Positions 9,784 to 50,902 of a DNA stretch of 64,000 nt are shown here, in pieces. Source of the stretch: a virus; IMG/VR virus record IMGVR_UViG_3300009529_000001, positions 1 through 64,000 of that record. One strand, written 5' to 3'. A program made the position numbers and the translations under genes. Below the pieces are notes generated by a model that made no database searches, was not told the origin of the DNA, and saw nothing but the letters and a program-made list of their open reading frames with translations. The stretch's first letter is position 1; every line of letters begins with the position of its first letter.

Positions 9784-9831
9784 AAATAGATGGATAAAGT
9801 TAAATATTAAATATTTGTTAGAGGAGACAAA

Positions 9832-35565: not shown

Positions 35566-35566
35566 T

Positions 35567-35857: not shown

Positions 35858-36470
35858 ATATATTGAAAAACATTTACCTTATATCCATTTTACAAATAAT
35901 AAAAGAGATGAATTAAATAATTATAGAGAAGATGCTGCTCAACATATAGTCCAAGAATTAATAAAATTATATCCTAAAAAATATAAATATACAGATTTTG
36001 ATTGGGTTACTCGTTCTGCAATCCGCCGTAAATCCATTGATATTACAAATAAATTCGGCAAAAAAGATAAAAGAGAAGTTAGCGAAAATACCAGATTTAA
36101 AATTAGAGATAAAAATACGGATAATTATGACGATAGTTTAGAATTACAAGATGATCTTTATTGTCATCGCGTTAATGAATCTATGAAAGATTGGGAAGAG
36201 AAAACAGTTAGAAAAAGAAAAATAGAATACATAGAAGATCTTGTTTACAAAATTACATATGGATTTTTAAAAGAGGAATTTAATGATTGGGATAGAGAAT
36301 ACCTTGATTCTTTGATATTTCTTTATAATTTAGGATATTCAAATTTTAGTAAAGATGACATATATGAATGTATGGGTTATGATGTTCAAGACAGGCTAAC
36401 ACTTAATAGTAAATTGGTTTTATTTAGGAATAGATTGAAGAAATGCTGGCCTGATAGGATTGTAATATGA
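35802..36470 (+). CDS. Divergent sigma-factor-like protein
   Basis: EDAAQ...IRRKSIDITNK region-2-like; C-terminal helical HTH-like segment. Confidence 0.4.
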   Translation: MPNGFARKGRKKLKKELRKYIEKHLPYIHFTNNKRDELNNYREDAAQHIVQELIKLYPKKYKYTDFDWVTRSAIRRKSIDITNKFGKKDKREVSENTRFKIRDKNTDNYDDSLELQDDLYCHRVNESMKDWEEKTVRKRKIEYIEDLVYKITYGFLKEEFNDWDREYLDSLIFLYNLGYSNFSKDDIYECMGYDVQDRLTLNSKLVLFRNRLKKCWPDRIVI

Positions 36471-37570
36471 ATATAGATTTTGATCCTGCCAAGATTTTAA
36501 TTTACAAAGAACAATTGGATAATATATACAAGGGAGATATTCCTTTACCTATTATGCTTGAAATAGATCCATGTAATTTTTGTAATTTTGGATGTGAATG
36601 GTGTAGTAGCGGACATTATGTTAGAAATGAAAAAGAAATTAAAAGCAAGATGATGATTGATGAAATTAGTTTTAGACACATTCTTGATTTTATGGATGCT
36701 ATAGATACAGTACAAGGAATTTATTGGTGTGGTGGTGGTGAACCTACATTAAATATTTACCTTAAAGAATTGATGACAATAACAAAGAAATTAGGGATTA
36801 AAAATTATATTACGACAAACGGATCTACATTGAAAGTGAAATATAAATATCTTGTCGATTTATGTGATTGGATTGCAGTAAGTGTAAATTCTGGATCAGA
36901 AGAACAATGGAAAAGAATTACAAAAACTAAAATAGAATATGGAAAATATTTGAATGGTCTTTATAATATGTGTCAATATAGAAAACATGGTGCTTTAAGA
37001 GATATGGAGATTAATTTTAAATTCTTTTTTGATCCTTTGTCGTATGTTGATATTGAAAATGCTTATGAACAAGCTATAGATCTTGGATTTACACATGTAA
37101 CTATTAAACCTGTAGATATGTTTGTTTATGAACGTGGAAAAGATAGAAAAAGGTTTGATGAAATTTGGCCTAATCACATTGTAGATAGTGTTAATGCGGC
37201 AATTAATAGAATCAAGGAAAGAAATAAAAGTAGTCCTAAAATCAAATTAGAATGTGGAAGTTTTTATGGAATGTTCAATGTAGATAAAAAAGAACATTTA
37301 AATTTTGATAAGTGTTGGACATCAATGATGGCTCCTGTATTTGGAGCGGATGGTTGGGTTCATCTTTGTTGTGTTAGAAGAGGAGAAAAAAAGTTAGTGA
37401 GATGGGATAATGGTGATCTTTTAGATTTTTGGAATTCAGATGAACATAAAAAAATGGTTTGGGGATTTGATCCTAAAGAAGAATGTCCTGTGCGTTGTAA
37501 GATGGGCATGTATAATCAGCTTTTCCAACAGATTTGGCTTGATAAAAAATTCAATGTAGGACATATCTAA
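36467..37570 (+). CDS. Radical SAM protein with SPASM/twitch domain
   Basis: CNFGCEWC, GGGEPT, TTNG; C-terminal CWT...DGWVHLCC...CPVRC. Confidence 0.93.
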   Translation: MNIDFDPAKILIYKEQLDNIYKGDIPLPIMLEIDPCNFCNFGCEWCSSGHYVRNEKEIKSKMMIDEISFRHILDFMDAIDTVQGIYWCGGGEPTLNIYLKELMTITKKLGIKNYITTNGSTLKVKYKYLVDLCDWIAVSVNSGSEEQWKRITKTKIEYGKYLNGLYNMCQYRKHGALRDMEINFKFFFDPLSYVDIENAYEQAIDLGFTHVTIKPVDMFVYERGKDRKRFDEIWPNHIVDSVNAAINRIKERNKSSPKIKLECGSFYGMFNVDKKEHLNFDKCWTSMMAPVFGADGWVHLCCVRRGEKKLVRWDNGDLLDFWNSDEHKKMVWGFDPKEECPVRCKMGMYNQLFQQIWLDKKFNVGHI

Positions 37571-38793
37571 TGAAAATTGGTTGGGTAAGATTAACGATGG
37601 CAACCGAATTGGATTATAATATTTCCAAGAACGGGCTAGGTGAAGAACGTCCTATGTTGTTTAAAGGATTTCTTGACAGAGGACACAAGGTTAAGCTTCT
37701 TACTCCAGTAAAGAAGAAAGATCAAAAAACATTACAAGCTGCAAAAAATGGAGATAGTTTTGAAAATTGTATTGTGGATAATTCTTGGTTAAAAAAATTA
37801 GAATATGATCCAAAGGGATTTGCAGATAATTGCGATGTATTAGTCATAGAAAATGGTCCTTTGAACTTTACCTTCATTGATCCTTTCTTTAAAATACCGC
37901 AAATTAGACGGGCGATTGAAATAATTAATAGATTTGAAGGATTAGTAATATTTTATCAGACTGATCCTTTATTACCGTTTCCATTTTGGCGGATGACAAT
38001 GGCGAAATATCCATGGAGTCATCCCAAAAATACTCCAAGAAAAACAGGAAAGGGATTAGAAACACACGGATGGGGTGATTTTGATGAGATATTTAAGAAT
38101 AAGAAAATTCTTGTAATAGGAAAGTCACCTAAACCTAACGAATTTGCTCGGGCAAATAATGGACCTAGATTTAGTTACAATCGTTTTCGTAAGAAAGGAT
38201 TAATGAAGTTTGATTATCTTCATACAGGATACAATAAATATTTTATGCCACATATCAAACCTGTATTTGAAAAAAAGAAAAAGGATTTAATATATGTAGG
38301 TTTTCCGAGAAGTAGAACTAATGCTTTTAAGAGATATTATGGAAATTATTTAGATAGAACACATGTTTATGGTCCTTGGGATTTAACATCAAGAATTGAT
38401 TTTCTTGAAAGATGTAGATTAGAGGGGATGAAATGGTATGGATTTATAGATGGTTTTCCAAATATAACCAAGGCTTATAGTAGATCAAAAATTAGTATAA
38501 ATCTCATGCCTGAAAAAGCACAAGAATTGGGATGGATCACAAGTAGAGTTTATGAAAGCGTATTTTCAGGATGTATAACATTAGGGGAAGAGAGAACATT
38601 TGGGATAGAAAAATGTGAACCAGCAGAGTTAATGATTGATACATTTAATTCTGATGTAATAATAGGAAAAATTTTAGATTATAGTAAACAAGAATATACT
38701 GATAAAATTAGTGAACAATATGGTATGGTTAGACATTTAAATTATAATTATATTGTCAAGAAATTTGAAAAATTGGTGAAAAAATATGGCTGA
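37570..38793 (+). CDS. T4 DNA beta-glucosyltransferase (BGT)-like glycosyltransferase
   Basis: Compared with T4 BGT from memory: DVLVIENGPLNF~DRLIVVNSSINF; YQTDPLLPF~LFTDIRLPF; DLIYVGFPRS~DVIYGGSFRS; WITSRVYES~FITLRVWET. Confidence 0.8.
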   Translation: MKIGWVRLTMATELDYNISKNGLGEERPMLFKGFLDRGHKVKLLTPVKKKDQKTLQAAKNGDSFENCIVDNSWLKKLEYDPKGFADNCDVLVIENGPLNFTFIDPFFKIPQIRRAIEIINRFEGLVIFYQTDPLLPFPFWRMTMAKYPWSHPKNTPRKTGKGLETHGWGDFDEIFKNKKILVIGKSPKPNEFARANNGPRFSYNRFRKKGLMKFDYLHTGYNKYFMPHIKPVFEKKKKDLIYVGFPRSRTNAFKRYYGNYLDRTHVYGPWDLTSRIDFLERCRLEGMKWYGFIDGFPNITKAYSRSKISINLMPEKAQELGWITSRVYESVFSGCITLGEERTFGIEKCEPAELMIDTFNSDVIIGKILDYSKQEYTDKISEQYGMVRHLNYNYIVKKFEKLVKKYG

Positions 38794-39706
38794 GAAAAAG
38801 ATTCTTTGTATAGCGGATGGCGGCATAGGCAATGTTGTACTAGCTACGCCGCTTGTAATAGCAATCAAAGAACTTTTTAAACGATCCCAGATTACTTTTG
38901 GTACTCGTCCCCCATGTTTACCTATTGTGAGTGGTTTAGTTGATCATATACTTGATGTGACAAAAGATGAATTTGAAAAATATTACGATATGGTTCTTTG
39001 TACTATATGGCATAGTTATTTTTTGAAAAGAAAAGATGAGATCAAATTTGATTATTTTGACAGTATAGAATATAAAGCTCCTCCTGTTACTCATGAAGTT
39101 GATTTAAATATGAGATTATTGGATTCTTTTGGATTTAAAAATAGACGTAATCCTAAACCATACTGTAATGAAAAATATTGTGATATGTATATTAATAAAA
39201 ATATTATCAATATTGGAATAGCAAATGGAAAAGCTGATGATGATAATTGGGAAAGAAAAAAATGGCCTCATTTGTATGAGTTTTTAAAATATTTAAGGAA
39301 GAATTTCAAAAAAGAATATTGTGTTTATTTGTTTGGCGGAGAGAGAGAAAAGAAAATTTTTAAGAAATTAGATCTAGAATACAATGAATATAATATAGCA
39401 GGAAAACTAGAGATTGATGAAATTGCATATCTCATGAAACAAATGGATATTAATATAGTCAATGATACAGGATTAGGACATGTTGCTGGAGCAGTAGGAG
39501 CAAAGACTTTAGTTCTTTGGGGTCCAACAAGTTTTAAAAAGAATAGGCACATTGGAGATGAAGTATATACTGTTGTTAGTGATGCGAATTGTATAGAGTG
39601 TCAAGGATCGGATAGATGGCATAAATGTAAAGAGTGGAGATGTATGGATAGATTTGTTCCTGAATTTGTATTCAAAAAAATGTATGAGTTAGTAGATATT
39701 CAATAA
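38786..39706 (+). CDS. GT9 (heptosyltransferase-like) glycosyltransferase
   Basis: GGIGNVVLATP, HEVDLN, KKWP, NDTGLGHVAGAVGAKTLVLWGPT, C-x2-C...C...CM. Confidence 0.92.
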   Translation: MAEKKILCIADGGIGNVVLATPLVIAIKELFKRSQITFGTRPPCLPIVSGLVDHILDVTKDEFEKYYDMVLCTIWHSYFLKRKDEIKFDYFDSIEYKAPPVTHEVDLNMRLLDSFGFKNRRNPKPYCNEKYCDMYINKNIINIGIANGKADDDNWERKKWPHLYEFLKYLRKNFKKEYCVYLFGGEREKKIFKKLDLEYNEYNIAGKLEIDEIAYLMKQMDINIVNDTGLGHVAGAVGAKTLVLWGPTSFKKNRHIGDEVYTVVSDANCIECQGSDRWHKCKEWRCMDRFVPEFVFKKMYELVDIQ

Positions 39707-39731
39707 ACTTTTTAAAGATAATCAATTATAC

Positions 39732-39760
39732 TTGCAAAATGATTTTCCTACCTTTATATT
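39732..39760 (+). promoter_or_regulatory. Sigma70-like promoter TTGCAA-17-TATATT
   Basis: Intergenic; shares TGATTTTC spacer motif with 57106 and 59046. Confidence 0.7.
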
Positions 39761-39808
39761 ATAACTATGGATTAAGTTATGTAATAACAAATTAGAAGGG
39801 AGATAGGA

Positions 39809-40054
39809 ATGGCGAAACGCAAAAAAGATTCTAAAAAAATAGCTAGAAAAAAAGCTATAGAAAAAGCTTTATCTGACGGGCGCGAAACGGTAATTATCAA
39901 TGAAAGACCGTGCAGCGTGGAAATTATTAAAAACAGCAAGGGGTATACGTATGCGATGAAAGTTTATGTAGAAGATATTGCGGAGATGAAGAAGAGTGTT
40001 AAAGATCTTAATAGTCTCGATAAATCCATAAGGAAAACATTTGCAATTGACTAA
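39809..40054 (+). CDS. Hypothetical protein
   Basis: RBS, downstream of promoter. Confidence 0.7.
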   Translation: MAKRKKDSKKIARKKAIEKALSDGRETVIINERPCSVEIIKNSKGYTYAMKVYVEDIAEMKKSVKDLNSLDKSIRKTFAID

Positions 40055-40103
40055 TTGTTAGTCAGTTTTTTAATGTATCGTTTTTTTAAAAGAGGAGGAA
40101 TTT

Positions 40104-40691
40104 ATGTCGAAGAAGAGTAAGAAGGAAAAGAAAGAAGCAAAGGAAAAGGAAAAAGAAGAGAAGACAAAGAAGAAGACAAAGAAGGAGCCAGAAGAGCGCA
40201 AGGAAGTCATTGTTAAGTGTACAAAAGCTGAACCGATTAGAAAACAGAATCTTGTTCCTCATACTGGTACAAGATTTAAGAAGGGTTCTGCTCGTCAGCT
40301 TGCGTTCGATATTATTGCAAAGGGCGCAAGAAAAGGGAAGGCTATTAGTGCAATTCGTGAGGAATTGAAGAATACACGTAAACCAGATGCTAAGTTCAAT
40401 CTTGATGCTGCTTATCTAAATTTTATAGTTGCATCACATCCGGAATTTTTTAAGGCTTATAACGATGATACGCTTGAGCTAGTAAAAGAGCCTCAAATTG
40501 ATGAGGAAGCTGCAAAGAAGGCTGATGAGGCTGCAAAGGAAAAGAAGAAGAAGGCTGCCGAAGCACGTGAAAAGCGTGAAAAAGCCGTTAAGGGTGAAAA
40601 GAAGAAGAAGGCCGCAAAGCCTGATAACGATGAAGATGAAGACGACGAAGACGACGAAGACGACGAAGACGACGAAGATGAAGATGATTAA
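40104..40691 (+). CDS. Lys/Glu-rich protein with acidic tail (possible nucleoid protein)
   Basis: GAGGAGG RBS; K/E/A-rich arms, (DDE)n C-terminus; followed by terminator. Confidence 0.75.
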   Translation: MSKKSKKEKKEAKEKEKEEKTKKKTKKEPEERKEVIVKCTKAEPIRKQNLVPHTGTRFKKGSARQLAFDIIAKGARKGKAISAIREELKNTRKPDAKFNLDAAYLNFIVASHPEFFKAYNDDTLELVKEPQIDEEAAKKADEAAKEKKKKAAEAREKREKAVKGEKKKKAAKPDNDEDEDDEDDEDDEDDEDEDD

Positions 40692-40720
40692 TGCAGCATA
40701 AAAATTGGTTAAGTTGTTTT

Positions 40721-40753
40721 AAATAAGGGGATTAAAAATCCCCTTATTTTTTT
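40721..40753 (+). terminator. Rho-independent terminator
   Basis: AAATAAGGGGAT-TAAAA-ATCCCCTTATTT then T run. Confidence 0.85.
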
Positions 40754-40764
40754 ATAAAAAGGTG

Positions 40765-40792
40765 TTGCAAAAAAATAAGGGGATGTTATTAT
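40765..40792 (+). promoter_or_regulatory. Sigma70-like promoter TTGCAA-16-(TG)TATTAT
   Basis: Upstream of the sigma-like gene. Confidence 0.55.
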
Positions 40793-40846
40793 TATAAGCC
40801 GTTAAAATTCAAAGGTTTATGGATTATTTTTTTTGAAGGGAAAAGT

Positions 40847-41515
40847 ATGTCACCCCTCTCGAAAGAACTTCGAGAAACAAAGAAGACGTGGTACAAAGTA
40901 TGGATCAGAAATAAACAAAAGATATTGAATATAGTAAGAAAATTGAAAAATAAGTATAAATTCTATATAATGTCTGAAGAAGAAATATTAACGACTGTAG
41001 AATTTAAATTTTTTGAATTATTTTATAAAACATATGAAAATGATAATCAATATCTTCGATTCATGTTTATAATCACTAAGAATATTATAAATGATTTACA
41101 AAGACGTGAATATCGTTTTGTGAACAAACACAGATATGATGCTGCTAAAATATGTGCTCGATTTAGGATAGTAACAAACGATATAATTGATGATAATTAC
41201 GTAAGAATAACAAATGAGATGGCCGTCGATAATAAGTTTGAAAATAATTGTGAAGAAAAATATATTTATCAAGAACTTTTAAAACAAGTTGAAAATATAT
41301 TAGAAAGACCAGTTTATATAGAAATTTTCCATTTAATTTTAAATGATTATAAAGCTAAAGAAATTAGTAAAATTGTAGGAATGTCAACAGGATTCATAGG
41401 ACAAGTAAAACGACAAGTAATTTTTCCTGCCATCAAAGAAGTTCTCAATATTCCAGATAAAAGGTATGAATGGTTATCTGCAAGCGGACGTATTTATAGC
41501 CCAAGGAGGAAATAG
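40847..41515 (+). CDS. ECF-like RNA polymerase sigma factor
   Basis: FMFIITKNIINDLQRR (region 2); IFHLILNDYKAKEISKIVGMSTGFI (region 4 HTH). Confidence 0.7.
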   Translation: MSPLSKELRETKKTWYKVWIRNKQKILNIVRKLKNKYKFYIMSEEEILTTVEFKFFELFYKTYENDNQYLRFMFIITKNIINDLQRREYRFVNKHRYDAAKICARFRIVTNDIIDDNYVRITNEMAVDNKFENNCEEKYIYQELLKQVENILERPVYIEIFHLILNDYKAKEISKIVGMSTGFIGQVKRQVIFPAIKEVLNIPDKRYEWLSASGRIYSPRRK

Positions 41516-41516
41516 T

Positions 41517-41924
41517 ATGGAAGAGAAATTTGGATGTTATGCAAAGGAATTGTTGAGTGATGTAGATGATGAAGAAGGTGGAGGTGAGATTCCAACATTA
41601 AGATTCCACGATATATTAGCATTAGCAGTAGAACTTCAAAAAGCTAAGAACAAAACTTATAAAGATTCATGGAAAAAGAATGGAGAATTCTTGTCGGCAT
41701 TTGAAAATGTTTCTAGAAAATATGATAGAATACATAACGTTGTTATAGATTATGTAGAAAATAGTGCACCTTTACCAAAGGGTGACGCTTCTATAGCTCA
41801 AGGATTAATGGATCTTCTTGTATATGCTGGTTTATGGCTTACATTAGTTGCAGAAAAAAGACCGAATGAATTTATAGAACTTTTGGAAAGTATTGTTAAA
41901 AGTATTGAAGAAACATCAAAGTAA
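41517..41924 (+). CDS. DUF1599 / nucleotide-modification-associated domain protein
   Basis: KNKTYKDSWKKNG...RKYDRI...LMDLLVY; AGGAGG RBS before ATG 41517. Confidence 0.75.
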   Translation: MEEKFGCYAKELLSDVDDEEGGGEIPTLRFHDILALAVELQKAKNKTYKDSWKKNGEFLSAFENVSRKYDRIHNVVIDYVENSAPLPKGDASIAQGLMDLLVYAGLWLTLVAEKRPNEFIELLESIVKSIEETSK

Positions 41925-42003
41925 TTTATAATTGATTTTACATTTGATGTAACACAAGGCATTATAAAGGGTAGTAAATGTTTAACTTTTTAGGAGGAAT
42001 TTA

Positions 42004-42288
42004 ATGGCTTTTCTAAGAAAACCTTGTATTATTAAGTATAGACCTGATCCAGCTAAAACGATTGAAGATAATTTGAAAACTGTATTTGGTTCTATAGCTG
42101 GCTGTGTTGATGATAATGATTTTGAGATAACTTTAGAAATGACGAATGTTGAAGAATTTGATGCTGAAGAAATAGAAAATCTTATAAATGATTCAATGGA
42201 ACTTGCCGAACAAGTAGAAAAATTAGATCTCAAAACGCCTCATAGTGTTACTCCTGACGGTAAACCACTTTTTACAGAAAAGGGATAA
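42004..42288 (+). CDS. Hypothetical acidic protein
   Basis: AGGAGG RBS. Confidence 0.7.
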   Translation: MAFLRKPCIIKYRPDPAKTIEDNLKTVFGSIAGCVDDNDFEITLEMTNVEEFDAEEIENLINDSMELAEQVEKLDLKTPHSVTPDGKPLFTEKG

Positions 42289-42291
42289 ATC

Positions 42292-42462
42292 ATGGCCGAC
42301 AAAAAGGAAGTTGTTAAAGGTTTCTGCATGAAATGCAAGCAGAAGAGGAAGATGGTCGAAACAGAAGAAGTGACCATGAAAAATGGTCGTCCTGCTCTTA
42401 AAGGTAAGTGCAAGTTTTGTGGAACAAAGATGTTCAAGATACTTTCGATTAAGAAGGACTAA
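42292..42462 (+). CDS. DUF5679-like zinc-ribbon protein (56 aa)
   Basis: GFCMKCK...MKNGRPALKGKCKFCGTKMFKI; not in ORF track. Confidence 0.85.
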   Translation: MADKKEVVKGFCMKCKQKRKMVETEEVTMKNGRPALKGKCKFCGTKMFKILSIKKD

Positions 42463-42464
42463 TA

Positions 42465-43412
42465 ATGAAGGTAGCGATCATTGACGGAAATGGTTTGTCA
42501 TTCCGCATTTTCGCTCAATTTAAAGACTCCCCGACAGGTTTGTTAAAAAACAATGTTGGACTTCCGACTACAGTAATTTTTGGATTTTTAAGGTCACTTT
42601 TAAAACTTGCAGAACGTATAAAATTTGATAGTTCTATTGTTACTTGGGATGTGACAGGAAGTAAGTTTAGAAAGAAAGTATATCCTAAATACAAAGCACA
42701 TCGCAAACATAAAGACATGAAAGATTATTATGAGGAGCTTGATGCTTGTCGAGACTATATGAAAGTGTTTGGTTTCAACCAAGCTGTAGCAAGAGGAATA
42801 GAAGCGGATGACGTTATAGCTTGGTTATCTAGGAAATTAAAGAAAGATGGACATAGTCCCATAATTGTTTCGGACGATAAGGATTTTTATCAATGCGCAC
42901 GTGGTGTAAGAATTTTTAGACCGATTAAAAACGAATTTGTAAATACAGAATGGGTTAAAAATGAATTTGGAATCCATCCTAAACATATGGCATTACTTCA
43001 AGCTTTAACAGGTGATAAGGTCGATAATATACCAGGGATCAGAGGGATTGGTCCTAAAACTGCGTCAAAACTTATTAACGAATTCGGAACAACAGTTGAT
43101 AAGTTGGTTGATAATTGTAATCATAAGCGTTGGGGTTCGATTTTAAAAGAAGAACGTGAAAATTTAAAAACTTATCTTCAACTCACTACACTAAGAAGAC
43201 AGTTGAAGGAATATAAAAAATGGGAAAGGAAAAGATTAAGGAAATGTTTGAAGGAAGCTTTTGTAAGAAAACATCCGAAGTTGAAGAAAGTTATTCAGTT
43301 GAAGGAAGATTTGGAACTGGAAACTATTGATATAGTTTTTTTGCTTAGGAGAATAGGTATCCAGGTTTTAGGCAAAAATGGAAAACAAAAAAGACCGGAG
43401 ATAATAGTATGA
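42465..43412 (+). CDS. 5'-3' exonuclease / flap endonuclease (Pol I N-terminal-like)
   Basis: IIDGN, YKAHR, EADDVI, SDDKDF, ALTGDKVDNIPGIRGIGPKTA. Confidence 0.95.
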   Translation: MKVAIIDGNGLSFRIFAQFKDSPTGLLKNNVGLPTTVIFGFLRSLLKLAERIKFDSSIVTWDVTGSKFRKKVYPKYKAHRKHKDMKDYYEELDACRDYMKVFGFNQAVARGIEADDVIAWLSRKLKKDGHSPIIVSDDKDFYQCARGVRIFRPIKNEFVNTEWVKNEFGIHPKHMALLQALTGDKVDNIPGIRGIGPKTASKLINEFGTTVDKLVDNCNHKRWGSILKEERENLKTYLQLTTLRRQLKEYKKWERKRLRKCLKEAFVRKHPKLKKVIQLKEDLELETIDIVFLLRRIGIQVLGKNGKQKRPEIIV

Positions 43413-44134
43413 GTATTGATCTATATGATACAAAAATTCTTGTGACGGGTGGAACAGGTACTTTAGGAAATGAGCTCAAGAACTATATTCCTAATGCTAT
43501 GTATCCTTCAAGAGAAGAGTTTGATATTCTATGGCCTACAATGAGATTAAGAGATTTTTTATGGAAAGAAAAAGTTGCAATGATTATTCATTGCGCTGCG
43601 ATAATTAATGACAAAATTGATAAAGAAGATCCTGAGAGTATGACTCTTGCTTTTAATACAAATGCAGGAGCAGTAGCCAGTCTATGTCATGCTTGTCGTA
43701 AAACGGATACACATTTATTCTATATCTCGACAGACTATGTATTTGATGGGAAGGGATCGAAGTATAAAGAAACTGATTGTCCTAATCCTCAGAATTTTTA
43801 TGCAATGACAAAATTACTTGGAGAAGCATATGTGAGATTTGTAGGCGGTCATGTGATAAGAACATCGTTTTGCCATAAAGACAAATGGCTATTCGATGGA
43901 GCATATACAAACGTATATTCCAGTAGAGATACGGTAGATGTGATCGCTCCGTTAATTGCAAAGGTAATAGCAAGAACTGATAAATGGGGACAAATCCATG
44001 TAGGAACAGAACGTAAAAGTTTTTATGATCTTGCTGTTAAAATTAAACCAGACGTAAAACGTATTAGAAATAAAGCAAATAAGGATACTTCTTTTGATTT
44101 ATCGTTGATGTACAAAGTATTGGAGGAAGAATAA
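43409..44134 (+). CDS. rmlD: dTDP-4-dehydrorhamnose reductase-like SDR
   Basis: VTGGTGTLG, HCAA, ISTDYVFDG, YAMTK. Confidence 0.88.
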   Translation: MSIDLYDTKILVTGGTGTLGNELKNYIPNAMYPSREEFDILWPTMRLRDFLWKEKVAMIIHCAAIINDKIDKEDPESMTLAFNTNAGAVASLCHACRKTDTHLFYISTDYVFDGKGSKYKETDCPNPQNFYAMTKLLGEAYVRFVGGHVIRTSFCHKDKWLFDGAYTNVYSSRDTVDVIAPLIAKVIARTDKWGQIHVGTERKSFYDLAVKIKPDVKRIRNKANKDTSFDLSLMYKVLEEE

Positions 44135-44745
44135 TGGAATTTGAGTATTTAAAGCACTTGAAAGAACGGGGAGAAGATCCCAAAGGATATGGTAAAACAA
44201 ATTATGAAGATTTTTTAAAGCAGGGTAACTATGTATTTAAAGGAAAAATTGAAGGTGTAGAAATAAGAAAACTTGAAAAGTTTGTTGATGATCGTGGATT
44301 TCTTAGCGAAATTTGTAGATCAGATTGGGAAGAAATAATTAAACTTGCTCCTGGAGGAAGAGATGATATTTTAGGTAACCTTAATCAAGTTTACATCGTA
44401 GGTAATTGGAGCAAAGGAACTGTAAGAGCATTTCATAAACATGAAAAACTTGTAGACTTTTTTGTGATTGTTAGAGGAGTAGCAAAATTTATATTATTTG
44501 ATGATCGTCCTGATTCCCCAACATTTGGGATATTACAACAAATTATTTCAGAAGCAGGTGATCTTAAAATGATTACCGTTCCTTCTGGAGTTTTTCATGG
44601 TTGGCAAAGTCTTTGTGTTGAAACTCTTTTAGTCAGCGTAGCAAATGATCTTTATATGGGATATAATAAAAAAGAATACCTTGATGAACATCGTATTCCG
44701 TATGATATATTTGGGAAAAATATTTGGGAAGTGGAATATAAATGA
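44134..44745 (+). CDS. rmlC: dTDP-4-dehydrorhamnose 3,5-epimerase-like cupin
   Basis: DDRGFLSE, GTVRAFHKH, DDRPDSPTFG, VPSGVFHGW. Confidence 0.88.
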   Translation: MEFEYLKHLKERGEDPKGYGKTNYEDFLKQGNYVFKGKIEGVEIRKLEKFVDDRGFLSEICRSDWEEIIKLAPGGRDDILGNLNQVYIVGNWSKGTVRAFHKHEKLVDFFVIVRGVAKFILFDDRPDSPTFGILQQIISEAGDLKMITVPSGVFHGWQSLCVETLLVSVANDLYMGYNKKEYLDEHRIPYDIFGKNIWEVEYK

Positions 44746-44909
44746 AAATGACTTTATTAAATTTTGTGATTTTGATAGTTGTTCTATTTTTATGGTGGGC
44801 TAGTTTCAATGCAGCTAATTGGATAGCAGGACGTTTAGGAGTATATATAACTTTTGGACTTTGGATAGTTGGCGGCATTCTTATTGTTGTATATAAAAAG
44901 GATGAATAA
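44742..44909 (+). CDS. Small two-TM membrane protein (55 aa)
   Basis: ATGA overlap; hydrophobic; not in ORF track. Confidence 0.55.
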   Translation: MKMTLLNFVILIVVLFLWWASFNAANWIAGRLGVYITFGLWIVGGILIVVYKKDE

Positions 44910-44910
44910 A

Positions 44911-45234
44911 ATGAGTAAATTGACGGCATTTATGCTTATTCTTTTTGTATCTGGATTGCTTCTGTTTTTTGTTGGTCTTGGCGTTTCTCGTCCAACAGCT
45001 AAATTTAAACGTGGGGATTTAGTAAGAATAAAAATAAGTGAAGACCAAAAAATTGGGATGATAATAGCACCTGCTTGGTATTTTTCTTCTGGTGTGATTT
45101 ATGATGTAAGAATAACTGTTAAAAGAACAGAAATTCCTTATAATGAATTAGGTAGTGGTGGACCATTAAATGAAACAGAATATCAGATAGTACAATTTGT
45201 AGAATACGAATTAGAAAAGGTAGAATACAAATGA
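44911..45234 (+). CDS. Membrane-anchored hypothetical protein
   Basis: N-terminal TM then KFKRGDLV SH3-like strand. Confidence 0.6.
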   Translation: MSKLTAFMLILFVSGLLLFFVGLGVSRPTAKFKRGDLVRIKISEDQKIGMIIAPAWYFSSGVIYDVRITVKRTEIPYNELGSGGPLNETEYQIVQFVEYELEKVEYK

Positions 45235-46268
45235 ATTGGCTATTAATTTCCGGAGGAGCAGGATATGTGGGGACTTTGCTCCTAAAACGTATTGTTAATA
45301 AATACGATAGAGTCGCTGTATTGGATCCTTGCATATTTGGAACAAATGGCATAGAAAAATATACCAATGTTGTGATATTCAAACGTGGATTTAAGGATTT
45401 TCAAAAAAGAATAAGTGGTTCAAAAACTTGTGCAGGCATAATTCACTTAGGTGGGTTAAGCAATGACCCTATGGTAGACAATAATCCTGAAGCCAATATG
45501 CGAATCAATGTAGAGCTAACTAAGCTGCTTACAAAATGGGCCGTTAAAAATAAAATAAAGAAGTTTTTGTATGCAAGTAGTGCTTCTGTATATGGATTCA
45601 ATGATACTAAAGTTTTGACAGAAGAAGATGAACTTAATCCACAAAGTGCATATGGTAGAAGTAAAGTTGAATGCGAAAAATTTTTAGAAGATTGGGAAGA
45701 AATCAATCCTGTTATGGTTCGTAAAGGAACTTTGATGGGCGTAAGTGATAGAATGCGTTTTGATCTTGTAGTAAATACCTTATGTTGGTACGCTTATTTT
45801 GAAGGGAAAATTAGTTTATTTTCAGGAGGAGAAACATGGCGTCCCATGGTAAATGTTAAAGACGCTGCAAAATTATATGATTGGCTATTTCATCATAAAG
45901 AATATGAAAAATTTTCTGGACAAAAAATAAATTTAGTTCATAAAAATTATAGAGTAAGTGAATTAGGTTTATTTATGAAATCTTTAATAGAAAATGACAA
46001 TAAGTATCCAAAACAAATAGAAATTCATTCTGCTTATGCTATTGAAGAACCACGGAGTTATCAGATCAGTAAGGATAAACTCACTAAATTAGGATTTTTG
46101 ACTTATTTTGGTTTAAGAGAAACTGTAAAAGAAATATGGCATAATCTCAATGATGGAAAGTATAAGATTAATGATCCAATCTATTGGAGTGCAAGGTGGT
46201 TGGATCATTGTAAAAAAGTTTGTAATATTATTGGAAGGAAGTTTGATCCATTAGAAACTTATGTTTAA
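45231..46268 (+). CDS. NAD-dependent nucleotide-sugar epimerase/dehydratase (extended SDR)
   Basis: SGGAGYVG, HLGGLSNDP, ASSASVYG, YGRSK, RMRFDLVVN. Confidence 0.92.
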   Translation: MNWLLISGGAGYVGTLLLKRIVNKYDRVAVLDPCIFGTNGIEKYTNVVIFKRGFKDFQKRISGSKTCAGIIHLGGLSNDPMVDNNPEANMRINVELTKLLTKWAVKNKIKKFLYASSASVYGFNDTKVLTEEDELNPQSAYGRSKVECEKFLEDWEEINPVMVRKGTLMGVSDRMRFDLVVNTLCWYAYFEGKISLFSGGETWRPMVNVKDAAKLYDWLFHHKEYEKFSGQKINLVHKNYRVSELGLFMKSLIENDNKYPKQIEIHSAYAIEEPRSYQISKDKLTKLGFLTYFGLRETVKEIWHNLNDGKYKINDPIYWSARWLDHCKKVCNIIGRKFDPLETYV

Positions 46269-46584
46269 AACAAAGACAAGATTAATTAATACTCTTGGAA
46301 GAGTTTATTACGCTTTTTATTTGAAAGGTGGTAGAAAAAATCCTAAAAGAAAAGATATAGAAGAAAATATATATAAAACAAAATATCCTGATTCTTTGAA
46401 ATCATATCAAAAACTTTTTTCTCGATTATTTATACATATTAATGAAAAATTGACACAAAAATCTTATAAGAAAATAATAAAAATATTAAAAGAAGAAGAT
46501 AAATTAACCGAGAAAAAAAGGCGCGGTTATATTAAGTGCTGGCGTTTAATGGAGAAATATTATGGAGGTTATTCAAGCGAATAG
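46261..46584 (+). CDS. Basic hypothetical protein
   Basis: Coupled ORF. Confidence 0.55.
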   Translation: MFKTKTRLINTLGRVYYAFYLKGGRKNPKRKDIEENIYKTKYPDSLKSYQKLFSRLFIHINEKLTQKSYKKIIKILKEEDKLTEKKRRGYIKCWRLMEKYYGGYSSE

Positions 46585-48847
46585 TATTAATGATGGATTA
46601 GCAAAAGTTCTTGAAGGTATAGTAGGTAGAGGGAATAAAGTTGATATAAAAGGTAAAGAAACTCTAGAACTTCATCCTTGTTTAATAGAATTTGATAAAC
46701 CTCTTAAACGTACATTGCTTTATCCAGGAAGGGGTAATAATCCTTTCGCTAGTCTTGCTGAAACTTTATGGATTTTAGCAGGACGAAATGACGTTGATTG
46801 GCTAAAATTCTTTTTGCCAAGAGCGCCTGATTGGAGCGATGATGGTGAAGTTTGGAGAGCAGGTTATGGACCTCGATTGAGGCAATGGAAAGCAGAGGGT
46901 GAATGTTCTAGTGAATGGACGTTCATTGATCAAATTAAATATGTCTACGATACACTTAAAAATGATCTAATGAGCAGACAAGCAATAATATCTTTATGGG
47001 ATCCTGGTGAAGAATGTACTGTGGGAAAAACATTAGATTGTCCTTGTTCCAATTGGCTACATTTTATGGTAAGGAGAAAATATAGGCCAGAATTAGCAGA
47101 TATAAAAGACAAACCTGAAACTTGGACTTTCCATCTAGATTGTGAATTTGTGATCAGATCAAATGATGCAATTTGGGGATTCTGTCTTTCCGGTGCTACT
47201 AAAATAAAATTATTGGATGGAACTGTTAAACCTATAAAAGATCTTGTTGATAAACAGTTTTGGGTTTATTCAAAAAATAATGATAAAGAAATAGTACCCG
47301 GAAAAGTTATAAAATGTAAAAAAACAGGAAAGAAAAAAATATTAAAAATAACTTTTAGTGATGGAAGCTTCGTAAGATGTTCTAAAAACCATAAGTTTTT
47401 ATTAAGAGATTGGAAATATAGAAAAGCAAAAAATCTAAAAGTAGGTGATTCAATTGATAGTGTATATTTTAGATTGAATAAAAAAGGTTATGAACAATAT
47501 AACAACGGTGATGGCTGGTTTAATACGCATATAATGGCAAATATTCTGTCGGAAAAGGGAGAATTAGATAGTAATAATAATTTTCATATAACTCACCATA
47601 AAGATTTTGTTAAACGAAATAATAATCCTGAAAATCTTTTATGGCTGGGGAATTATGATCATCATAGTTTTCATGCTGAATTATTGCGTAAAATGTGGCG
47701 GGATCCTAAATATAGAAAATCAAGAAAGAAAGTTATAAAAAAACTTTTAGCTTTTAATAGAAAACAATGGAAAAATCCTGAATATAGAAGAGAAAGACGT
47801 AAAATCTTAAGTGAAAGAATGATCCAATGGTGGGAAGAAGAAAGATTTGATACTGAATTACATAAAGAAGCTGCTAAAAATAATTTAATCAATTACAATA
47901 AATCTTTTAAAGGGCGTAATAAATCTAGAGAGATTGGACAAACATTTGGAACAGATAATTTTAAGAAATATCACAAAACGGGCGGACATTTAAAAACTTT
48001 AGCAAAAATTCATAGAGAAAAATTAAACAATACTCCAAAAATTAAATTTAAACGCACTAGAACTAGAATCCTTAATGTTTTTAATGAATTGAAAAAAAGA
48101 TTCTTAGAATTTAATGAAGAAAATTATTTTAATTATAAACCAATGGGTAATCCTGGATGGAAAAAAGTTTTTGAATATTTTAAAGATTTGGATGAAATAA
48201 ATGAATGCTTAGAAAATTATAATCACATAGTTACTTCTATAAAATCTGACGGTTATGAAGATACTTATGATTTGGAAGTAGAAGATTATCACAATTTTGT
48301 ATTGGAAAATGGTGTTATCGTTCACAATTCTAATATTAATTTTTATGAATGGAGTGTATTACAAGAAATATTAGCAAGTGTATTAGGTATAGAAATTGGG
48401 ACATTTTATTATTATGTATCAAGTATACATGTTTACAAACATCATTGGAAACGTGTTAAAAAATTATTGGAAAATAAAGAAAAATTTGTAGACAATCTTC
48501 CTGAATTTAGATTTTGTAGAGGGCAAATTAATCTTGATAAATATTTGGAAGACTGTGAAATGTTATGTAAATATGTAGAAGAAATAATAATAAATGATAA
48601 GAAAAAACTTAAATATTTTATACCTTTTCATGGGGAGAGAGGATCTACTTTAAACGATATTGCTTGTTTATTGTCAGTTTTTGTAAAAATGAAACAAAAC
48701 GATAATGCTTGGAGAAAAACTTTGCATTGTATTCCATTTTCTGATTTAAAAGTATCTTGTTATTACTATGCAATGAAAAATATTTTTAAATACAAAGATT
48801 ATACAATTCAAGAAGCAATAGAAAAGGTGCAAAAAAATGAGTATTAA
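46562..48847 (+). CDS. Thymidylate-synthase-family deoxynucleotide hydroxymethylase with intein (mature ~379 aa)
   Basis: NNPFASLAETLWILAGRND, YGPRL, SRQAIISLWDP, DCPC, RSNDAIWGF|SNINFYEW, SIHVY. Confidence 0.9.
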   Translation: MEVIQANSINDGLAKVLEGIVGRGNKVDIKGKETLELHPCLIEFDKPLKRTLLYPGRGNNPFASLAETLWILAGRNDVDWLKFFLPRAPDWSDDGEVWRAGYGPRLRQWKAEGECSSEWTFIDQIKYVYDTLKNDLMSRQAIISLWDPGEECTVGKTLDCPCSNWLHFMVRRKYRPELADIKDKPETWTFHLDCEFVIRSNDAIWGFCLSGATKIKLLDGTVKPIKDLVDKQFWVYSKNNDKEIVPGKVIKCKKTGKKKILKITFSDGSFVRCSKNHKFLLRDWKYRKAKNLKVGDSIDSVYFRLNKKGYEQYNNGDGWFNTHIMANILSEKGELDSNNNFHITHHKDFVKRNNNPENLLWLGNYDHHSFHAELLRKMWRDPKYRKSRKKVIKKLLAFNRKQWKNPEYRRERRKILSERMIQWWEEERFDTELHKEAAKNNLINYNKSFKGRNKSREIGQTFGTDNFKKYHKTGGHLKTLAKIHREKLNNTPKIKFKRTRTRILNVFNELKKRFLEFNEENYFNYKPMGNPGWKKVFEYFKDLDEINECLENYNHIVTSIKSDGYEDTYDLEVEDYHNFVLENGVIVHNSNINFYEWSVLQEILASVLGIEIGTFYYYVSSIHVYKHHWKRVKKLLENKEKFVDNLPEFRFCRGQINLDKYLEDCEMLCKYVEEIIINDKKKLKYFIPFHGERGSTLNDIACLLSVFVKMKQNDNAWRKTLHCIPFSDLKVSCYYYAMKNIFKYKDYTIQEAIEKVQKNEY
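47183..48328 (+). mobile_element. Intein (382 aa) with HNH-type homing endonuclease
   Basis: CLSGAT, CSKNHKF, HHKDFVKRNNNPENL (HNH), TYDLEVEDYHNFVLENGVIVHN|S. Confidence 0.95.
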
Positions 48848-50891: not shown

Positions 50892-50902
50892 AGGAGAAGA
50901 TC

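What the first reader, a model, noticed from the sequence alone, without database searches (positions are those of the whole stretch)
36467..48847. Candidate novel DNA hypermodification pathway: glycosylated hydroxymethyl-pyrimidine, possibly base-J-like
Seen: a TS-family enzyme with intact catalytic PC and, after intein removal, RSNDAIWGFSNIN; a T4 BGT homolog; GT9; radical SAM; DUF1599; RmlD/RmlC/SDR; dUTPase at 30552. Established: in the TS family the residue equivalent to E. coli Asn177 is Asn in dUMP enzymes and Asp in dCMP hydroxymethylases (T4 gp42), and T4 BGT glycosylates hydroxymethylcytosine in DNA. Inference: this enzyme has Asn and no Asp there (allowing a one-residue offset), pointing to 5-hmdU. 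A BGT-fold enzyme alongside it suggests glycosyl-hmU, like trypanosome base J, possibly with a deoxy-sugar and further extension.
Basis: partly seen in the sequence, partly recalled or inferred. Interest (0 to 1): 0.8.

Follow-up and report, generated by a model that had tools for sequence, protein, structure and literature searches.

The report
Phage thymine sugar-modification gene set
A complete 110-kb uncultured phage carries genes that most likely replace thymine with 5-hydroxymethyluracil and then attach tailored sugars to it in the DNA. This kind of DNA protection has been predicted from metagenomes, but I found no chemical demonstration of it for a virus.

Summary
The stretch encodes a radical SAM enzyme, a 407-aa glycosyltransferase, a GT9 glycosyltransferase, RmlD-like, RmlC-like and SDR sugar enzymes, and a thymidylate-synthase-family enzyme split by a 382-aa intein. 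Pfam's T4 BGT and DUF1599 models do not match anything in the genome.

The 407-aa protein is still a distant BGT relative. T4 BGT is its best structural match (Z 25.5), profile comparison through intermediate sequences gives E 1.8e-44, and the residues aligned to BGT's catalytic Asp100 and UDP-binding residues are invariant in its family.

The spliced enzyme aligns end to end with SPO1 gp29, a dUMP hydroxymethylase. It carries the full published signature: the catalytic Cys, Asp at the Leu143 position, Asp169 retained, and Asn at the Asn177 position.

The radical SAM gene and the BGT-like gene travel together in unrelated phages. The radical SAM fold is closest to the sugar-acting enzymes DesII and BlsE. 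Elsewhere the genome has an aGPT-Pplase1 homologue inside a glycosyltransferase operon, but no 5-hmU kinase and no Pplase2.

Best reading (0.6): glycosylated 5-hydroxymethyluracil DNA, a new variant of a known kind. All evidence is computational. This scan has flagged similar clusters in several other phage genomes.

The parts
30552..30986 (+). dUTPase. It would supply dUMP and keep dUTP out of the DNA.
   Evidence: TIGR00576 dut, E 4e-28, 98 bits. PF00692, E 1.2e-23, in the whole-genome census.
36467..37570 (+). Radical SAM enzyme with a CX3CX2C cluster and a C-terminal auxiliary Cys cluster. Proposed to tailor a sugar.
   Evidence: PF04055, E 3.8e-14. C39/C43/C46 and C283/C301/C340/C344 are invariant in 14 homologues. 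The AF2 model has pLDDT 83. Top structural matches are DesII (Z 22.9), BlsE (21.6) and SkfB (21.5). It sits next to the BGT-like gene in G001 and is on the same contig in L029.
37570..38793 (+). BGT-family GT-B glycosyltransferase. Proposed DNA 5-hydroxymethyluracil glycosyltransferase.
   Evidence: No Pfam hit. AF2 pLDDT 86. T4 BGT is the top hit by Foldseek and by VIA (Z 25.5). hhalign through intermediates gives E 1.8e-44 and places D132, R247/R249 and R326/E329 on BGT D100, R191/R195 and R269/E272. Those five residues are invariant in the 12-member family.
38786..39706 (+). GT9 (heptosyltransferase-family) glycosyltransferase. It overlaps the BGT-like gene by 8 bases. Proposed to add a second sugar.
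   Evidence: PF01075, E 3.4e-20. TIGR02195 heptosyltransferase II, E 2.2e-15, below its cut-off. No homologue found in the related phages G001 and G002.
40721..40749 (+). Strong terminator-like hairpin. It ends the radical SAM / BGT-like / GT9 transcription unit.
   Evidence: 13-pair stem followed by a T run; the best site in 35000-51500.
41466..41924 (+). Possible MazG/DUF1599-like all-alpha nucleotide pyrophosphatase (a lead only).
   Evidence: No Pfam hit. The Atlas look-up gives DUF1599- and MazG-bearing clusters, TM 0.52/0.68.
43409..44134 (+). RmlD-like NDP-4-keto-6-deoxyhexose reductase. Short form, 241 aa.
   Evidence: PF04321, E 2.2e-31. TIGR01214, E 3.7e-30, below its cut-off. STDYVFDG and YxxxK motifs are visible in the translation.
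44134..44745 (+). RmlC-like cupin (NDP-sugar 3,5-epimerase type).
   Evidence: PF00908, E 9e-11. TIGR01221, E 2.4e-6.
45231..46268 (+). SDR nucleotide-sugar epimerase-like enzyme.
   Evidence: PF01370, E 1.3e-25. Best NCBIfam hits are GalE (77 bits) and ADP-heptose 6-epimerase (66 bits). The motif is SSASVYG, not the TDE of 4,6-dehydratases.
46562..47182 (+). N-extein of the gp29-type dUMP hydroxymethylase. Holds the catalytic Cys and the Asp at the Leu143 position.
   Evidence: PF00303. tblastn to SPO1 gp29, 34%, E 2e-27. phrog_5131, E 4.7e-45. Alignment.
47183..48328 (+). 382-aa intein inserted in the active-site loop. Starts with Cys and ends with His-Asn. Has a weak HNH match.
   Evidence: PF14890, E 8.5e-20; HNH_3, E 0.006. 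Boundaries.
48329..48847 (+). C-extein of the hydroxymethylase. Begins SNIN, which includes the Asn177-equivalent residue, and carries a gp29-like C-terminal extension.
   Evidence: phmmer aligns I-N-F-Y with the F-N-V-F of B. subtilis ThyA. The spliced protein aligns with gp29 over residues 16-378, E 2.5e-42.

Best explanation
The phage makes 5-hydroxymethyl-dUMP and builds 5-hydroxymethyluracil into its DNA in place of some or all thymine. It then glycosylates that base on the DNA.

Proposed steps:
1. The dUTPase supplies dUMP.
2. After the intein splices out, the TS-family enzyme acts as a SPO1 gp29-type dUMP hydroxymethylase.
3. Host kinases and the phage DnaE polymerase put 5-hmdU into the DNA.
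4. The 407-aa BGT-family GT-B enzyme transfers a sugar from an NDP-sugar to the 5-CH2OH group, by an inverting mechanism with Asp132 as the base.
5. The co-transcribed radical SAM enzyme (DesII/BlsE-like fold) reworks the sugar, either as the nucleotide sugar or once it is on the DNA.
6. GT9 may add a second sugar. The RmlC-like, RmlD-like and SDR enzymes would supply an unusual NDP-sugar.

Shown here: gene identities, active-site signatures, homology to BGT and to gp29, and conserved gene linkage.

Inferred: the acceptor base, the sugar identity, the order of steps, and whether the GT9 and Rml-like genes and the distant sugar operons (genome 78-93 kb) feed the same product.
For: Hydroxymethylase.
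- The spliced protein matches SPO1 gp29 end to end (E 2.5e-42), against E. coli ThyA at 2e-14 and T4 gp42 at 9e-5.
- The signature is C146 = Cys, L143 -> Asp, D169 kept and N177 = Asn. The criteria come from PMC13326640.
- There is no ThyX and no Tet/JBP dioxygenase in the genome.

Glycosyltransferase.
- T4 BGT gives the top six Foldseek hits and the top four VIA hits (Z 24.4-25.5, against 22.6 for the best generic GT-B).
- hhalign through intermediates gives E 1.8e-44.
- The residues aligned with BGT's catalytic and UDP-binding residues are invariant.

Linkage.
- The BGT-like gene lies within about 5 kb of a gp29-type gene in two other phages. Those phages share fewer than 12 proteins with this one.
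- The radical SAM and BGT-like proteins are 52% identical between this phage and G001, while DnaE is only 29% identical.
- The radical SAM and BGT-like genes are also on one contig in L029. Five further contigs are inferred to hold both, from matching contig lengths.
- In Maribacter phage Molly a related BGT-like gene (hhalign E 5e-7) sits next to its TS-like gene, a UDP-glucose dehydrogenase and an epimerase.

5-hmU context.
- An aGPT-Pplase1 homologue (PF18723, E 1.9e-60) lies inside a GT4-GT4-sugar dehydrogenase operon.
- Brevibacterium phage LuckyBarnes has a TS-like gene, two glycosyltransferases and a Pplase1-like gene side by side.

Precedent.
- Phage BGT-like GT-B enzymes put hexose, HexNAc and heptose on 5hmC, and GT-B clusters associate with ThyS in about 28% of contigs.
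Against: - Nothing was measured. The phage is uncultured.
- Pfam's BGT model does not match this protein or 89 of 90 of its relatives. Generic GT4 enzymes score only about 3 Z units lower, so a non-DNA acceptor is not excluded.
- The small tree of TS homologues was unresolved because of long branches. Clade placement therefore rests on pairwise scores and signatures.
- The GT9, Rml-like and SDR genes are absent from the related clusters. They sit in a different transcription unit from the BGT-like gene.
- No dCMP deaminase was found and no dTTPase was identified. Full replacement of thymine is therefore unsupported.
- The contig assembled from ordinary metagenome reads. That argues against a very bulky, polymerase-blocking modification of the YerA41 type.
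Confidence: 0.6

Rival explanations
1. The sugars are not attached directly to the hydroxymethyl group. They form part of a larger linker-plus-oligosaccharide thymine hypermodification of the SP-15 / YerA41 type. In this reading the radical SAM enzyme builds or rearranges a carbon side chain at C5. The many other glycosyltransferases, methyltransferases and sulfotransferases of the genome, and the Pplase1 homologue, complete the structure.
For: - The genome holds at least nine glycosyltransferase-type genes, two sulfotransferases, several methyltransferases, and a nucleotidyltransferase-kinase fusion next to a HAD phosphatase.
- Pplase1 without a kinase is reported for RP13-type phages, which are grouped with YerA41. 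YerA41 thymidine carries about 1 kDa of probable sugars.
- Two SP-15 glycosyltransferases are among the nearest viral structural matches of the BGT-like protein.
- A radical SAM enzyme acting on a thymine adduct in DNA is known: M6 gp53.
Against: - The radical SAM fold is closest to the sugar-acting DesII and BlsE, not to spore photoproduct lyase or M6 gp53. No homologue of M6 gp53 was found.
- YerA41-type DNA resists standard sequencing, yet this genome assembled complete with terminal repeats.
- The polymerase is DnaE-type, not the SP15-like family A polymerase.
Confidence: 0.15
2. The TS-family enzyme serves only nucleotide supply (dTMP, or unglycosylated 5-hmdU). The glycosyltransferases and sugar enzymes decorate something other than DNA, such as virion proteins or the host envelope.
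For: - GT9, GT2, GT4, Rml-type and sulfotransferase families normally act on envelope glycans.
- Generic GT4 enzymes score close to BGT in the fold search.
- 19 of 90 relatives of the BGT-like protein match the general Glyco_trans_1_2 model.
Against: - The Asp at the Leu143 position, together with gp29-type similarity that includes the C-terminal extension, argues against a plain TS.
- BGT's catalytic and UDP-binding residues are conserved.
- The BGT-like gene is repeatedly linked with gp29-type genes and replication genes in unrelated phages.
- The genes sit among FEN, RNR and DnaE, not among structural genes.
Confidence: 0.12
3. The modified base is a cytosine derivative, either glycosyl-5-hydroxymethylcytosine as in T-even phages or glycosyl-5-hydroxycytosine as in RB69.
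For: - The closest solved structure by sequence is MilA, a CMP hydroxymethylase (E 2.7e-12).
- BGT itself acts on hmC.
- TS homologues that make 5-hydroxy-dCMP exist.
Against: - The specificity loop has Asn and no Asp, whereas T4 gp42 and MilA have Asp.
- Asp169 is retained, while every tested 5-hydroxy-dCMP synthase has Asn there.
- The match to T4 gp42 is only E 9e-5.
- The Pplase1 homologue points to hmU phages.
Confidence: 0.05
4. This is a canonical amino-acid or polyamine thymine hypermodification of the M6, ViI or PhiW-14 type: 5-hmU kinase, then aGPT-Pplase2 transfer.
For: A gp29-type hydroxymethylase, a Pplase1 homologue and a radical SAM gene are all present.
Against: - No homologue of the M6 gp54 kinase, the gp51 Pplase2, the gp52 PLP enzyme or the gp53 radical SAM enzyme.
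- No AAA_33-type kinase.
- Pplase1 (M6 gp55) was dispensable for the reconstituted reaction.
Confidence: 0.03

Closest known systems
T-even phage glucosyl-hmC pathway (T4 gp42 dCMP hydroxymethylase and beta-glucosyltransferase, adjacent genes in T4)
   Same: A TS-family hydroxymethylase makes the hydroxymethyl base before replication. A BGT-family GT-B enzyme, with the same catalytic Asp and UDP-binding Arg and Glu residues, would glycosylate it on the DNA.
   Different: - The base specificity signature is uracil (Asn), not cytosine (Asp).
- The glycosyltransferase lies outside Pfam's BGT model.
- A radical SAM enzyme, a GT9 and Rml-type enzymes are added.
- No dCTPase-type exclusion enzyme was identified.
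SPO1 gp29 dUMP hydroxymethylase and the hmU phages
   Same: End-to-end homology including the C-terminal extension, the same one-residue-longer Asn loop, and Asp at the Leu143 position.
   Different: To my knowledge SPO1 leaves hmU unglycosylated. Here the gene is interrupted by an intein and travels with a BGT-like glycosyltransferase.
Metavirome DNA sugar-hypermodification clusters (Pyle, Lund, O'Toole, Saleh; bioRxiv 10.1101/2023.12.21.572611, Cell Rep 2024)
   Same: Phage BGT-like GT-B enzymes and further glycosyltransferases build mono- to trisaccharides, including heptose, on a hydroxymethylpyrimidine in DNA. GT-B clusters often neighbour ThyS, epimerases and APH-type kinases.
   Different: Their demonstrated products are on 5hmC made after replication by a methyltransferase plus TET. 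Neither 5hmU products nor radical SAM partners are reported in that text (0 occurrences of 'radical SAM').
Base J of kinetoplastids (JBP1/2 thymidine hydroxylase plus JGT glucosyltransferase)
   Same: The predicted product class is the same: a sugar O-linked to 5-hydroxymethyluracil in DNA.
   Different: hmU would be made before replication by a TS-family enzyme, not by a dioxygenase; no Tet_JBP domain is present. The transferase is BGT-like. From my own knowledge, JGT has a GT-A-like fold.
Thymidine hypermodification of M6, ViI, PhiW-14 and SP10 (Lee et al. 2018, 2021)
   Same: A dUMP hydroxymethylase and an aGPT-Pplase clade 1 homologue (M6 gp55-like) are present.
   Different: The kinase, the Pplase2 transferase and the PLP enzyme are absent. 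Glycosyltransferases take the place of those partners around Pplase1.
DesII / BlsE radical SAM enzymes of deoxysugar and blasticidin S biosynthesis; mildiomycin MilA
   Same: The radical SAM enzyme's best structural matches are DesII and BlsE. DesII acts on a TDP-sugar and BlsE on cytosyl-glucuronic acid; that is my own knowledge plus the entry titles. MilA, a TS-family hydroxymethylase of a related nucleoside pathway, is the closest solved relative of the hydroxymethylase.
   Different: Sequence similarity is far below family cut-offs: rSAM_desII scores 18 bits against a cut-off of 450. SkfB scores within 1.5 Z units. The context is a phage replication module, not an antibiotic gene cluster.

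Membership tests
gp29-type dUMP hydroxymethylase (TS family) | Catalytic Cys (E. coli C146), preceded by Pro | tested here: met
   The motif ...LDCPCSNW... aligns with ...LAPCHAF... of E. coli ThyA.
gp29-type dUMP hydroxymethylase (TS family) | Asn at the N177 position (uracil), not Asp (cytosine) | tested here: met
   The spliced loop is RSNDAIWGFSNINFYEW, against gp29 RSNDLHWGTFGANLCQF. T4 gp42 has ...FRNDYAW and MilA has ...AVSDVF. phmmer pairs this Asn with the Asn of B. subtilis ThyA. The loop is one residue longer than in E. coli, so exact equivalence is inferred. No Asp is present at any offset.
gp29-type dUMP hydroxymethylase (TS family) | Acidic residue at the L143 position, which admits water and gives hydroxymethyl rather than methyl | tested here: met
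   Asp, three residues before the catalytic Cys, as in gp29, T4 gp42 and all close relatives. Criterion from PMC13326640.
gp29-type dUMP hydroxymethylase (TS family) | Full-length similarity to gp29, including its C-terminal extension | tested here: met
   blastp residues 16-378 against 16-382 of gp29, E 2.5e-42. ThyA gives 2e-14 and gp42 gives 9e-5. The 11-sequence tree was unresolved.
gp29-type dUMP hydroxymethylase (TS family) | Makes 5-hmdUMP from dUMP and methylene-THF | not testable with these tools
   Needs an enzyme assay.
5-hydroxy-dCMP synthase (RB69 gp48 type) | D169N substitution together with N177D | tested here: not met
   RSND keeps Asp169, and the N177 position is Asn. Criterion.
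T4 beta-glucosyltransferase family (Pfam PF09198; CAZy GT63) | Match to the Pfam model T4-Gluco-transf | tested here: not met
   No match in the genome at E<=1. Only 1 of 90 relatives matches, at E 3.3e-4.
T4 beta-glucosyltransferase family (Pfam PF09198; CAZy GT63) | GT-B fold closest to BGT over the whole chain | tested here: met
   VIA Z 25.5, rmsd 3.4, 329 of 344 residues, 16-18% identity. The next unrelated GT-B scores Z 22.6. Foldseek ranks 1-6 are all BGT.
T4 beta-glucosyltransferase family (Pfam PF09198; CAZy GT63) | Sequence homology to BGT | tested here: met
   The direct profile-to-sequence comparison is weak (probability 7%). About 20 family representatives match T4 BGT directly. 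Profile against [BGT plus 11 of them] gives probability 100%, E 1.8e-44. The intermediates were chosen from hits of the query profile, so this is a transitive link.
T4 beta-glucosyltransferase family (Pfam PF09198; CAZy GT63) | Catalytic Asp100 and UDP-binding Arg191, Arg195, Arg269 and Glu272 | tested here: met
   These align with D132, R247, R249, R326 and E329, which are all invariant in the 12-member family. The roles of the BGT residues come from my own knowledge of the BGT structure papers; the PDB entry for the D100A mutant is listed.
T4 beta-glucosyltransferase family (Pfam PF09198; CAZy GT63) | Glycosylates a hydroxymethylpyrimidine in duplex DNA | not testable with these tools
   Needs an assay on 5hmU- and 5hmC-DNA.
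Kinase-dependent thymidine hypermodification (5-HMUDK plus aGPT-Pplase2) | 5-hmU DNA kinase (P-loop) | tested here: not met
   No blastp or phmmer match to M6 gp54 at E<=0.01. No AAA_33 domain. A very divergent kinase cannot be excluded.
Kinase-dependent thymidine hypermodification (5-HMUDK plus aGPT-Pplase2) | Clade 2 aGPT-Pplase (amino-acid:DNA transferase) | tested here: not met
   No match to M6 gp51.
Kinase-dependent thymidine hypermodification (5-HMUDK plus aGPT-Pplase2) | Clade 1 aGPT-Pplase (M6 gp55-like) | tested here: met
   Genome 90999-91937 (-): PF18723, E 1.9e-60. M6 gp55, E 2.8e-19.
DesII/BlsE-type sugar radical SAM enzymes | Family-level sequence match | tested here: not met
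   TIGR04426 rSAM_desII scores 18 bits against a cut-off of 450.
DesII/BlsE-type sugar radical SAM enzymes | Closest fold | tested here: inconclusive
   DesII Z 22.9 (343 aligned) and BlsE 21.6, but SkfB 21.5 is nearly tied.
Base J pathway | Tet/JBP thymidine dioxygenase | tested here: not met
   PF12851 is absent at E<=0.1.

The most novel reading that the evidence does not exclude
The phage DNA carries a base not yet described chemically: 5-(glycosyloxymethyl)uracil, a viral counterpart of base J made by a TS-family route. Its sugar would be remodelled by a DesII/BlsE-like radical SAM enzyme, for example by deoxygenation or decarboxylation. It might then be extended by GT9 and other transferases, with methyl or sulfate groups added, in a pathway that lacks the kinase and uses an aGPT-Pplase1 homologue in an unknown role.
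Probability: 0.3. Interest if true: 0.8.

Novelty: new variant of a known kind. Interest (0 to 1): 0.62.

Why it matters
Glycosylated hydroxymethylcytosine is the classic phage shield against restriction enzymes and CRISPR nucleases. The thymine counterpart is known from trypanosomes (base J), and in phages only as poorly defined bulky modifications (SP-15, YerA41).

A defined gene set of dUMP hydroxymethylase, BGT-family transferase and sugar-type radical SAM enzyme would give a testable route to sugar-modified thymine in viruses. It would also add a new class of DNA glycosyltransferase and a possible first radical SAM enzyme acting on a DNA-linked sugar. Both are of interest for epigenetic labelling tools and for understanding phage resistance to host defences.

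It also offers a context in which to study aGPT-Pplase clade 1, which was dispensable in the reconstituted M6 reaction.

Tried and rejected
- Pfam models for T4 BGT (PF09198) and DUF1599 (PF07659) found nothing in the genome.
- Megablast of the region and tblastn of the BGT-like protein against 50,697 phage records found nothing. The radical SAM and GT9 proteins had only weak phage hits.
- An 11-sequence maximum-likelihood tree of TS homologues was unresolved, with long branches for ThyA, gp42 and the dead paralogue. I do not use it.
- The metagenome contigs were too short to show the TS gene.
- No dCMP deaminase, AAA_33 kinase, ThyX or Tet/JBP domain was found.
- I rejected a 4,6-dehydratase role for the SDR, because its motif is SSASVYG rather than TDE.
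- I rejected viperin, MoaA and W-cofactor maturase assignments for the radical SAM enzyme. All score far below their cut-offs.
- Literature searches for 'dUMP hydroxymethylase' with 'glycosyltransferase', and for HTVC023P with 'glucosyltransferase', returned nothing.
- The Molly phage paper does not mention its cluster.

Full report
**Setting.**
The window is the first 64 kb of a complete 109,578-bp virus record with direct terminal repeats. G+C is about 30-36% and almost all genes in the window are on the + strand. The replication genes include DnaE-type polymerase III alpha, RecA, a DnaB-like helicase, a FEN-type exonuclease and a class II ribonucleotide reductase.

**Observation.**
The stated stretch holds the following genes, in order:
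- a radical SAM gene (36467-37570)
- a 407-aa ORF with no Pfam match (37570-38793)
- GT9 (38786-39706)
- small ORFs, then a FEN exonuclease (42465-43412)
- an RmlD-like reductase (43409-44134)
- an RmlC-like cupin (44134-44745)
- an SDR (45231-46268)
- a 761-aa TS-family ORF (46562-48847), followed directly by the ribonucleotide reductase.

Most neighbouring genes overlap by a few bases. The one strong terminator-like hairpin is at 40721-40749. It separates a radical SAM / 407-aa / GT9 unit from a FEN / Rml-like / SDR / TS / RNR unit.

The TS ORF contains a 382-aa intein (47183-48328). It begins with Cys, ends with His-Asn, is followed by Ser, and has a weak HNH match. The dUTPase at 30552-30986 is real.

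Two items of the observation did not pass the direct test. Pfam's T4 BGT and DUF1599 models find nothing in the genome at E<=1.

**The hydroxymethylase.**
- The N-extein's best phage matches are TS homologues of Maribacter phage Molly, Brevibacterium phage LuckyBarnes and the SPO1 group (33-38% identity, E down to 8e-35). The 609 matching records are dominated by ViI-like, M6-like and SPO1-like phages.
- The spliced protein aligns with SPO1 gp29, annotated as dUMP hydroxymethylase, over residues 16-378 including the C-terminal extension, at E 2.5e-42. E. coli ThyA gives 2e-14 and T4 gp42 gives 9e-5.
- Lee et al. 2026 (PMC13326640) list the diagnostic residues. N177 is Asn for dUMP and Asp for dCMP. 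L143 is a bulky hydrophobic residue in methylating enzymes and is acidic in hydroxymethylases. D169N marks the newly found 5-hydroxy-dCMP synthases.
- In my alignment this enzyme has the catalytic Cys, Asp at the L143 position, Asp169 retained, and Asn in the N177 loop.
- That loop is one residue longer than in E. coli and T4, exactly as in gp29. No Asp occurs at any offset, whereas T4 gp42 and MilA have Asp. phmmer independently pairs the Asn with the Asn of B. subtilis ThyA.
- The intein sits three residues before this Asn.
- A small tree was unresolved and is not used.
- There is no ThyX and no Tet/JBP enzyme.
- A second TS-like ORF (22412-23530) lacks the Cys and the RSND motif and is presumably inactive.

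**The glycosyltransferase.**
- The 407-aa protein has only 12 close homologues among 5.8 billion clusters.
- Its AlphaFold model (pLDDT 86, pTM 0.88) matches T4 BGT best. Foldseek ranks 1-6 are BGT, at E 9e-12. VIA gives Z 25.5, rmsd 3.4 and 329 of 344 residues, against Z 22.6 for the best generic GT-B.
- A family profile finds 281 representative clusters. T4 BGT matches about twenty of them directly.
- The close family compared with BGT plus eleven of these intermediates gives probability 100%, E 1.8e-44 over 322 columns.
- Both this alignment and the weak direct one place D132 on BGT Asp100, within the motif T-D-x-x-L-P-F. They place R247 and R249 on Arg191 and Arg195, and R326 and E329 on Arg269 and Glu272. 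All five residues are invariant in the family.
- Pfam's BGT model hits only 1 of 90 relatives. This is therefore a distinct, unannotated branch of the BGT lineage.
- Molly gp102, annotated as 'beta glucosyl transferase', is related (hhalign E 5e-7).

**Linkage.**
- Two viral contigs hold a homologue of the BGT-like gene: G001 (140 kb, complete) and G002 (96 kb). In both, a gp29-type gene with the same Asn/Asp signature lies within about 5 kb and runs into dnaE.
- These phages share fewer than a dozen proteins with ours. DnaE is 29% identical between ours and G001, but the radical SAM and BGT-like proteins are each 52% identical.
- An 8-kb metagenome contig (L029) repeats the local order: radical SAM, a second B12-binding radical SAM, BGT-like, a homologue of ORF 40104-40691, then FEN.
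- Cultured phages show the same theme. Molly has UDP-glucose dehydrogenase, an epimerase, a BGT-like gene and a TS-like gene side by side. LuckyBarnes has a TS-like gene, two glycosyltransferases and a Pplase1-like gene side by side.

**The radical SAM enzyme.**
It has the CX3CX2C motif and a conserved C-terminal Cys cluster. Sequence models give only sub-threshold hits. Its model (pLDDT 83) is closest to DesII (Z 22.9, 343 residues aligned) and BlsE (Z 21.6), with SkfB nearly tied at 21.5. DesII and BlsE act on a nucleotide sugar and on a base-linked glucuronic acid respectively. I therefore propose sugar tailoring, as a moderately supported inference.

**Other sugar genes.**
- The RmlD-like and RmlC-like proteins match their families below the curated cut-offs.
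- The SDR looks like an epimerase (GalE or ADP-heptose epimerase type) and lacks the dehydratase motif.
- GT9, the Rml-like genes and the SDR have no counterparts in G001 or G002. Their role in the same product rests on position alone.
- Outside the window the genome has many more sugar genes at 78-93 kb: GT2, several GT4, FkbM and TylF-type methyltransferases, a HAD phosphatase, a cupin, a nucleotidyltransferase-kinase fusion, sulfotransferases and a short NDP-sugar dehydrogenase.
- Inside a GT4-GT4-dehydrogenase operon lies a 312-aa protein matching PF18723 at E 1.9e-60. It is a homologue of M6 gp55, LuckyBarnes gp38 and a YungSlug protein, that is, aGPT-Pplase clade 1. Its tblastn distribution across phages mirrors that of the hydroxymethylase.
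- There is no homologue of the 5-hmU DNA kinase, Pplase2, the PLP enzyme or M6's radical SAM enzyme. The canonical amino-acid pathway is therefore not present.
- Pplase1 without a kinase is also reported for RP13-type phages, which are grouped with the heavily glycosylated YerA41.

**Comparison with what is known.**
- Glucosyl-hmC in T-even phages is the closest mechanistic model. T4 gene 42 and beta-gt are adjacent.
- Pyle et al. showed that phage BGT-like GT-B enzymes and others install hexose, HexNAc and heptose glycans on 5hmC. They noted that GT-B clusters neighbour ThyS in about 28% of contigs.
- The T-dioxygenase paper notes a frequent association of dioxygenases with glycosyltransferases, which suggests glycosylated 5hmU.
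- YerA41, SP-15 and Carin-5 carry glycosylated thymine derivatives whose biosynthesis is unresolved.
- I found no paper reporting a measured sugar directly on 5-hmU in a virus, nor a radical SAM partner of a DNA glycosyltransferase. The library is incomplete, so this is not proof of absence.
- This scan has already flagged similar clusters in several other phage genomes.

**Verdict.**
It remains unmeasured. It is best filed as a new variant of the known hydroxymethylpyrimidine glycosylation systems, with a rare radical SAM / BGT-like core.

Noticed in passing
window 22412-23530 (+): A second, divergent TS-fold ORF (372 aa) just upstream of dnaE. It lacks the catalytic Cys (Pro-Asn instead of Pro-Cys) and the RSND motif, so it is probably a dead paralogue. 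In G001 and G002 the active gp29-type gene occupies this position next to dnaE.
   Followed up: partly
Genome 88257-92863 (-), outside the window (L004:8257-12863): An operon of GT4, GT4, a short (279 aa) NDP-sugar dehydrogenase, an aGPT-Pplase clade 1 homologue (PF18723, E 1.9e-60) and a 308-aa unknown protein. No 5-hmU kinase or Pplase2 is present anywhere in the genome.
   Followed up: partly
window 33978-34712 (+) and genome 86963-88267 (+): Two sulfotransferase-family genes. The second is fused to a methyltransferase-like domain. They raise the possibility of a sulfated glycan.
   Followed up: no
window 40104-40691 (+): A Lys/Glu-rich 195-aa protein ending in a long Asp/Glu run, followed by the strongest terminator of the region. 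A 42%-identical homologue follows the BGT-like gene in metagenome contig L029. It may be a DNA-binding helper.
   Followed up: no
L029:1896-3284 (+): In a related metagenome contig, a second radical SAM enzyme with a B12-binding domain lies between the radical SAM homologue and the BGT-like gene.
   Followed up: no
L006:4084-4605, L007:3717-4343, L028, L031: In another branch of the family the BGT-like gene is followed by a DUF2284 metal-binding protein and two conserved unknown proteins. In G002 a SAM methyltransferase replaces the radical SAM gene upstream.
   Followed up: partly
window 47183-48328 (+): The intein interrupts the hydroxymethylase three residues before the base-specificity Asn. 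The extein also has a 17-residue insertion (RKYRPELADIKDKPETW) that is absent from all compared homologues.
   Followed up: partly
L008 (Brevibacterium phage LuckyBarnes, NC_047851) 6989-11004: A cultured phage with a 517-aa TS-like protein carrying a long C-terminal extension, two glycosyltransferases annotated as HMC glucosyltransferases, and a Pplase1-like protein side by side. It is a ready experimental model.
   Followed up: partly
window 35802-36470 (+) and 40847-41515 (+): Two 222-aa ORFs with no family match, one opening each of the two transcription units. The first has a 35%-identical homologue at the start of L029. They may be phage transcription factors.
   Followed up: no
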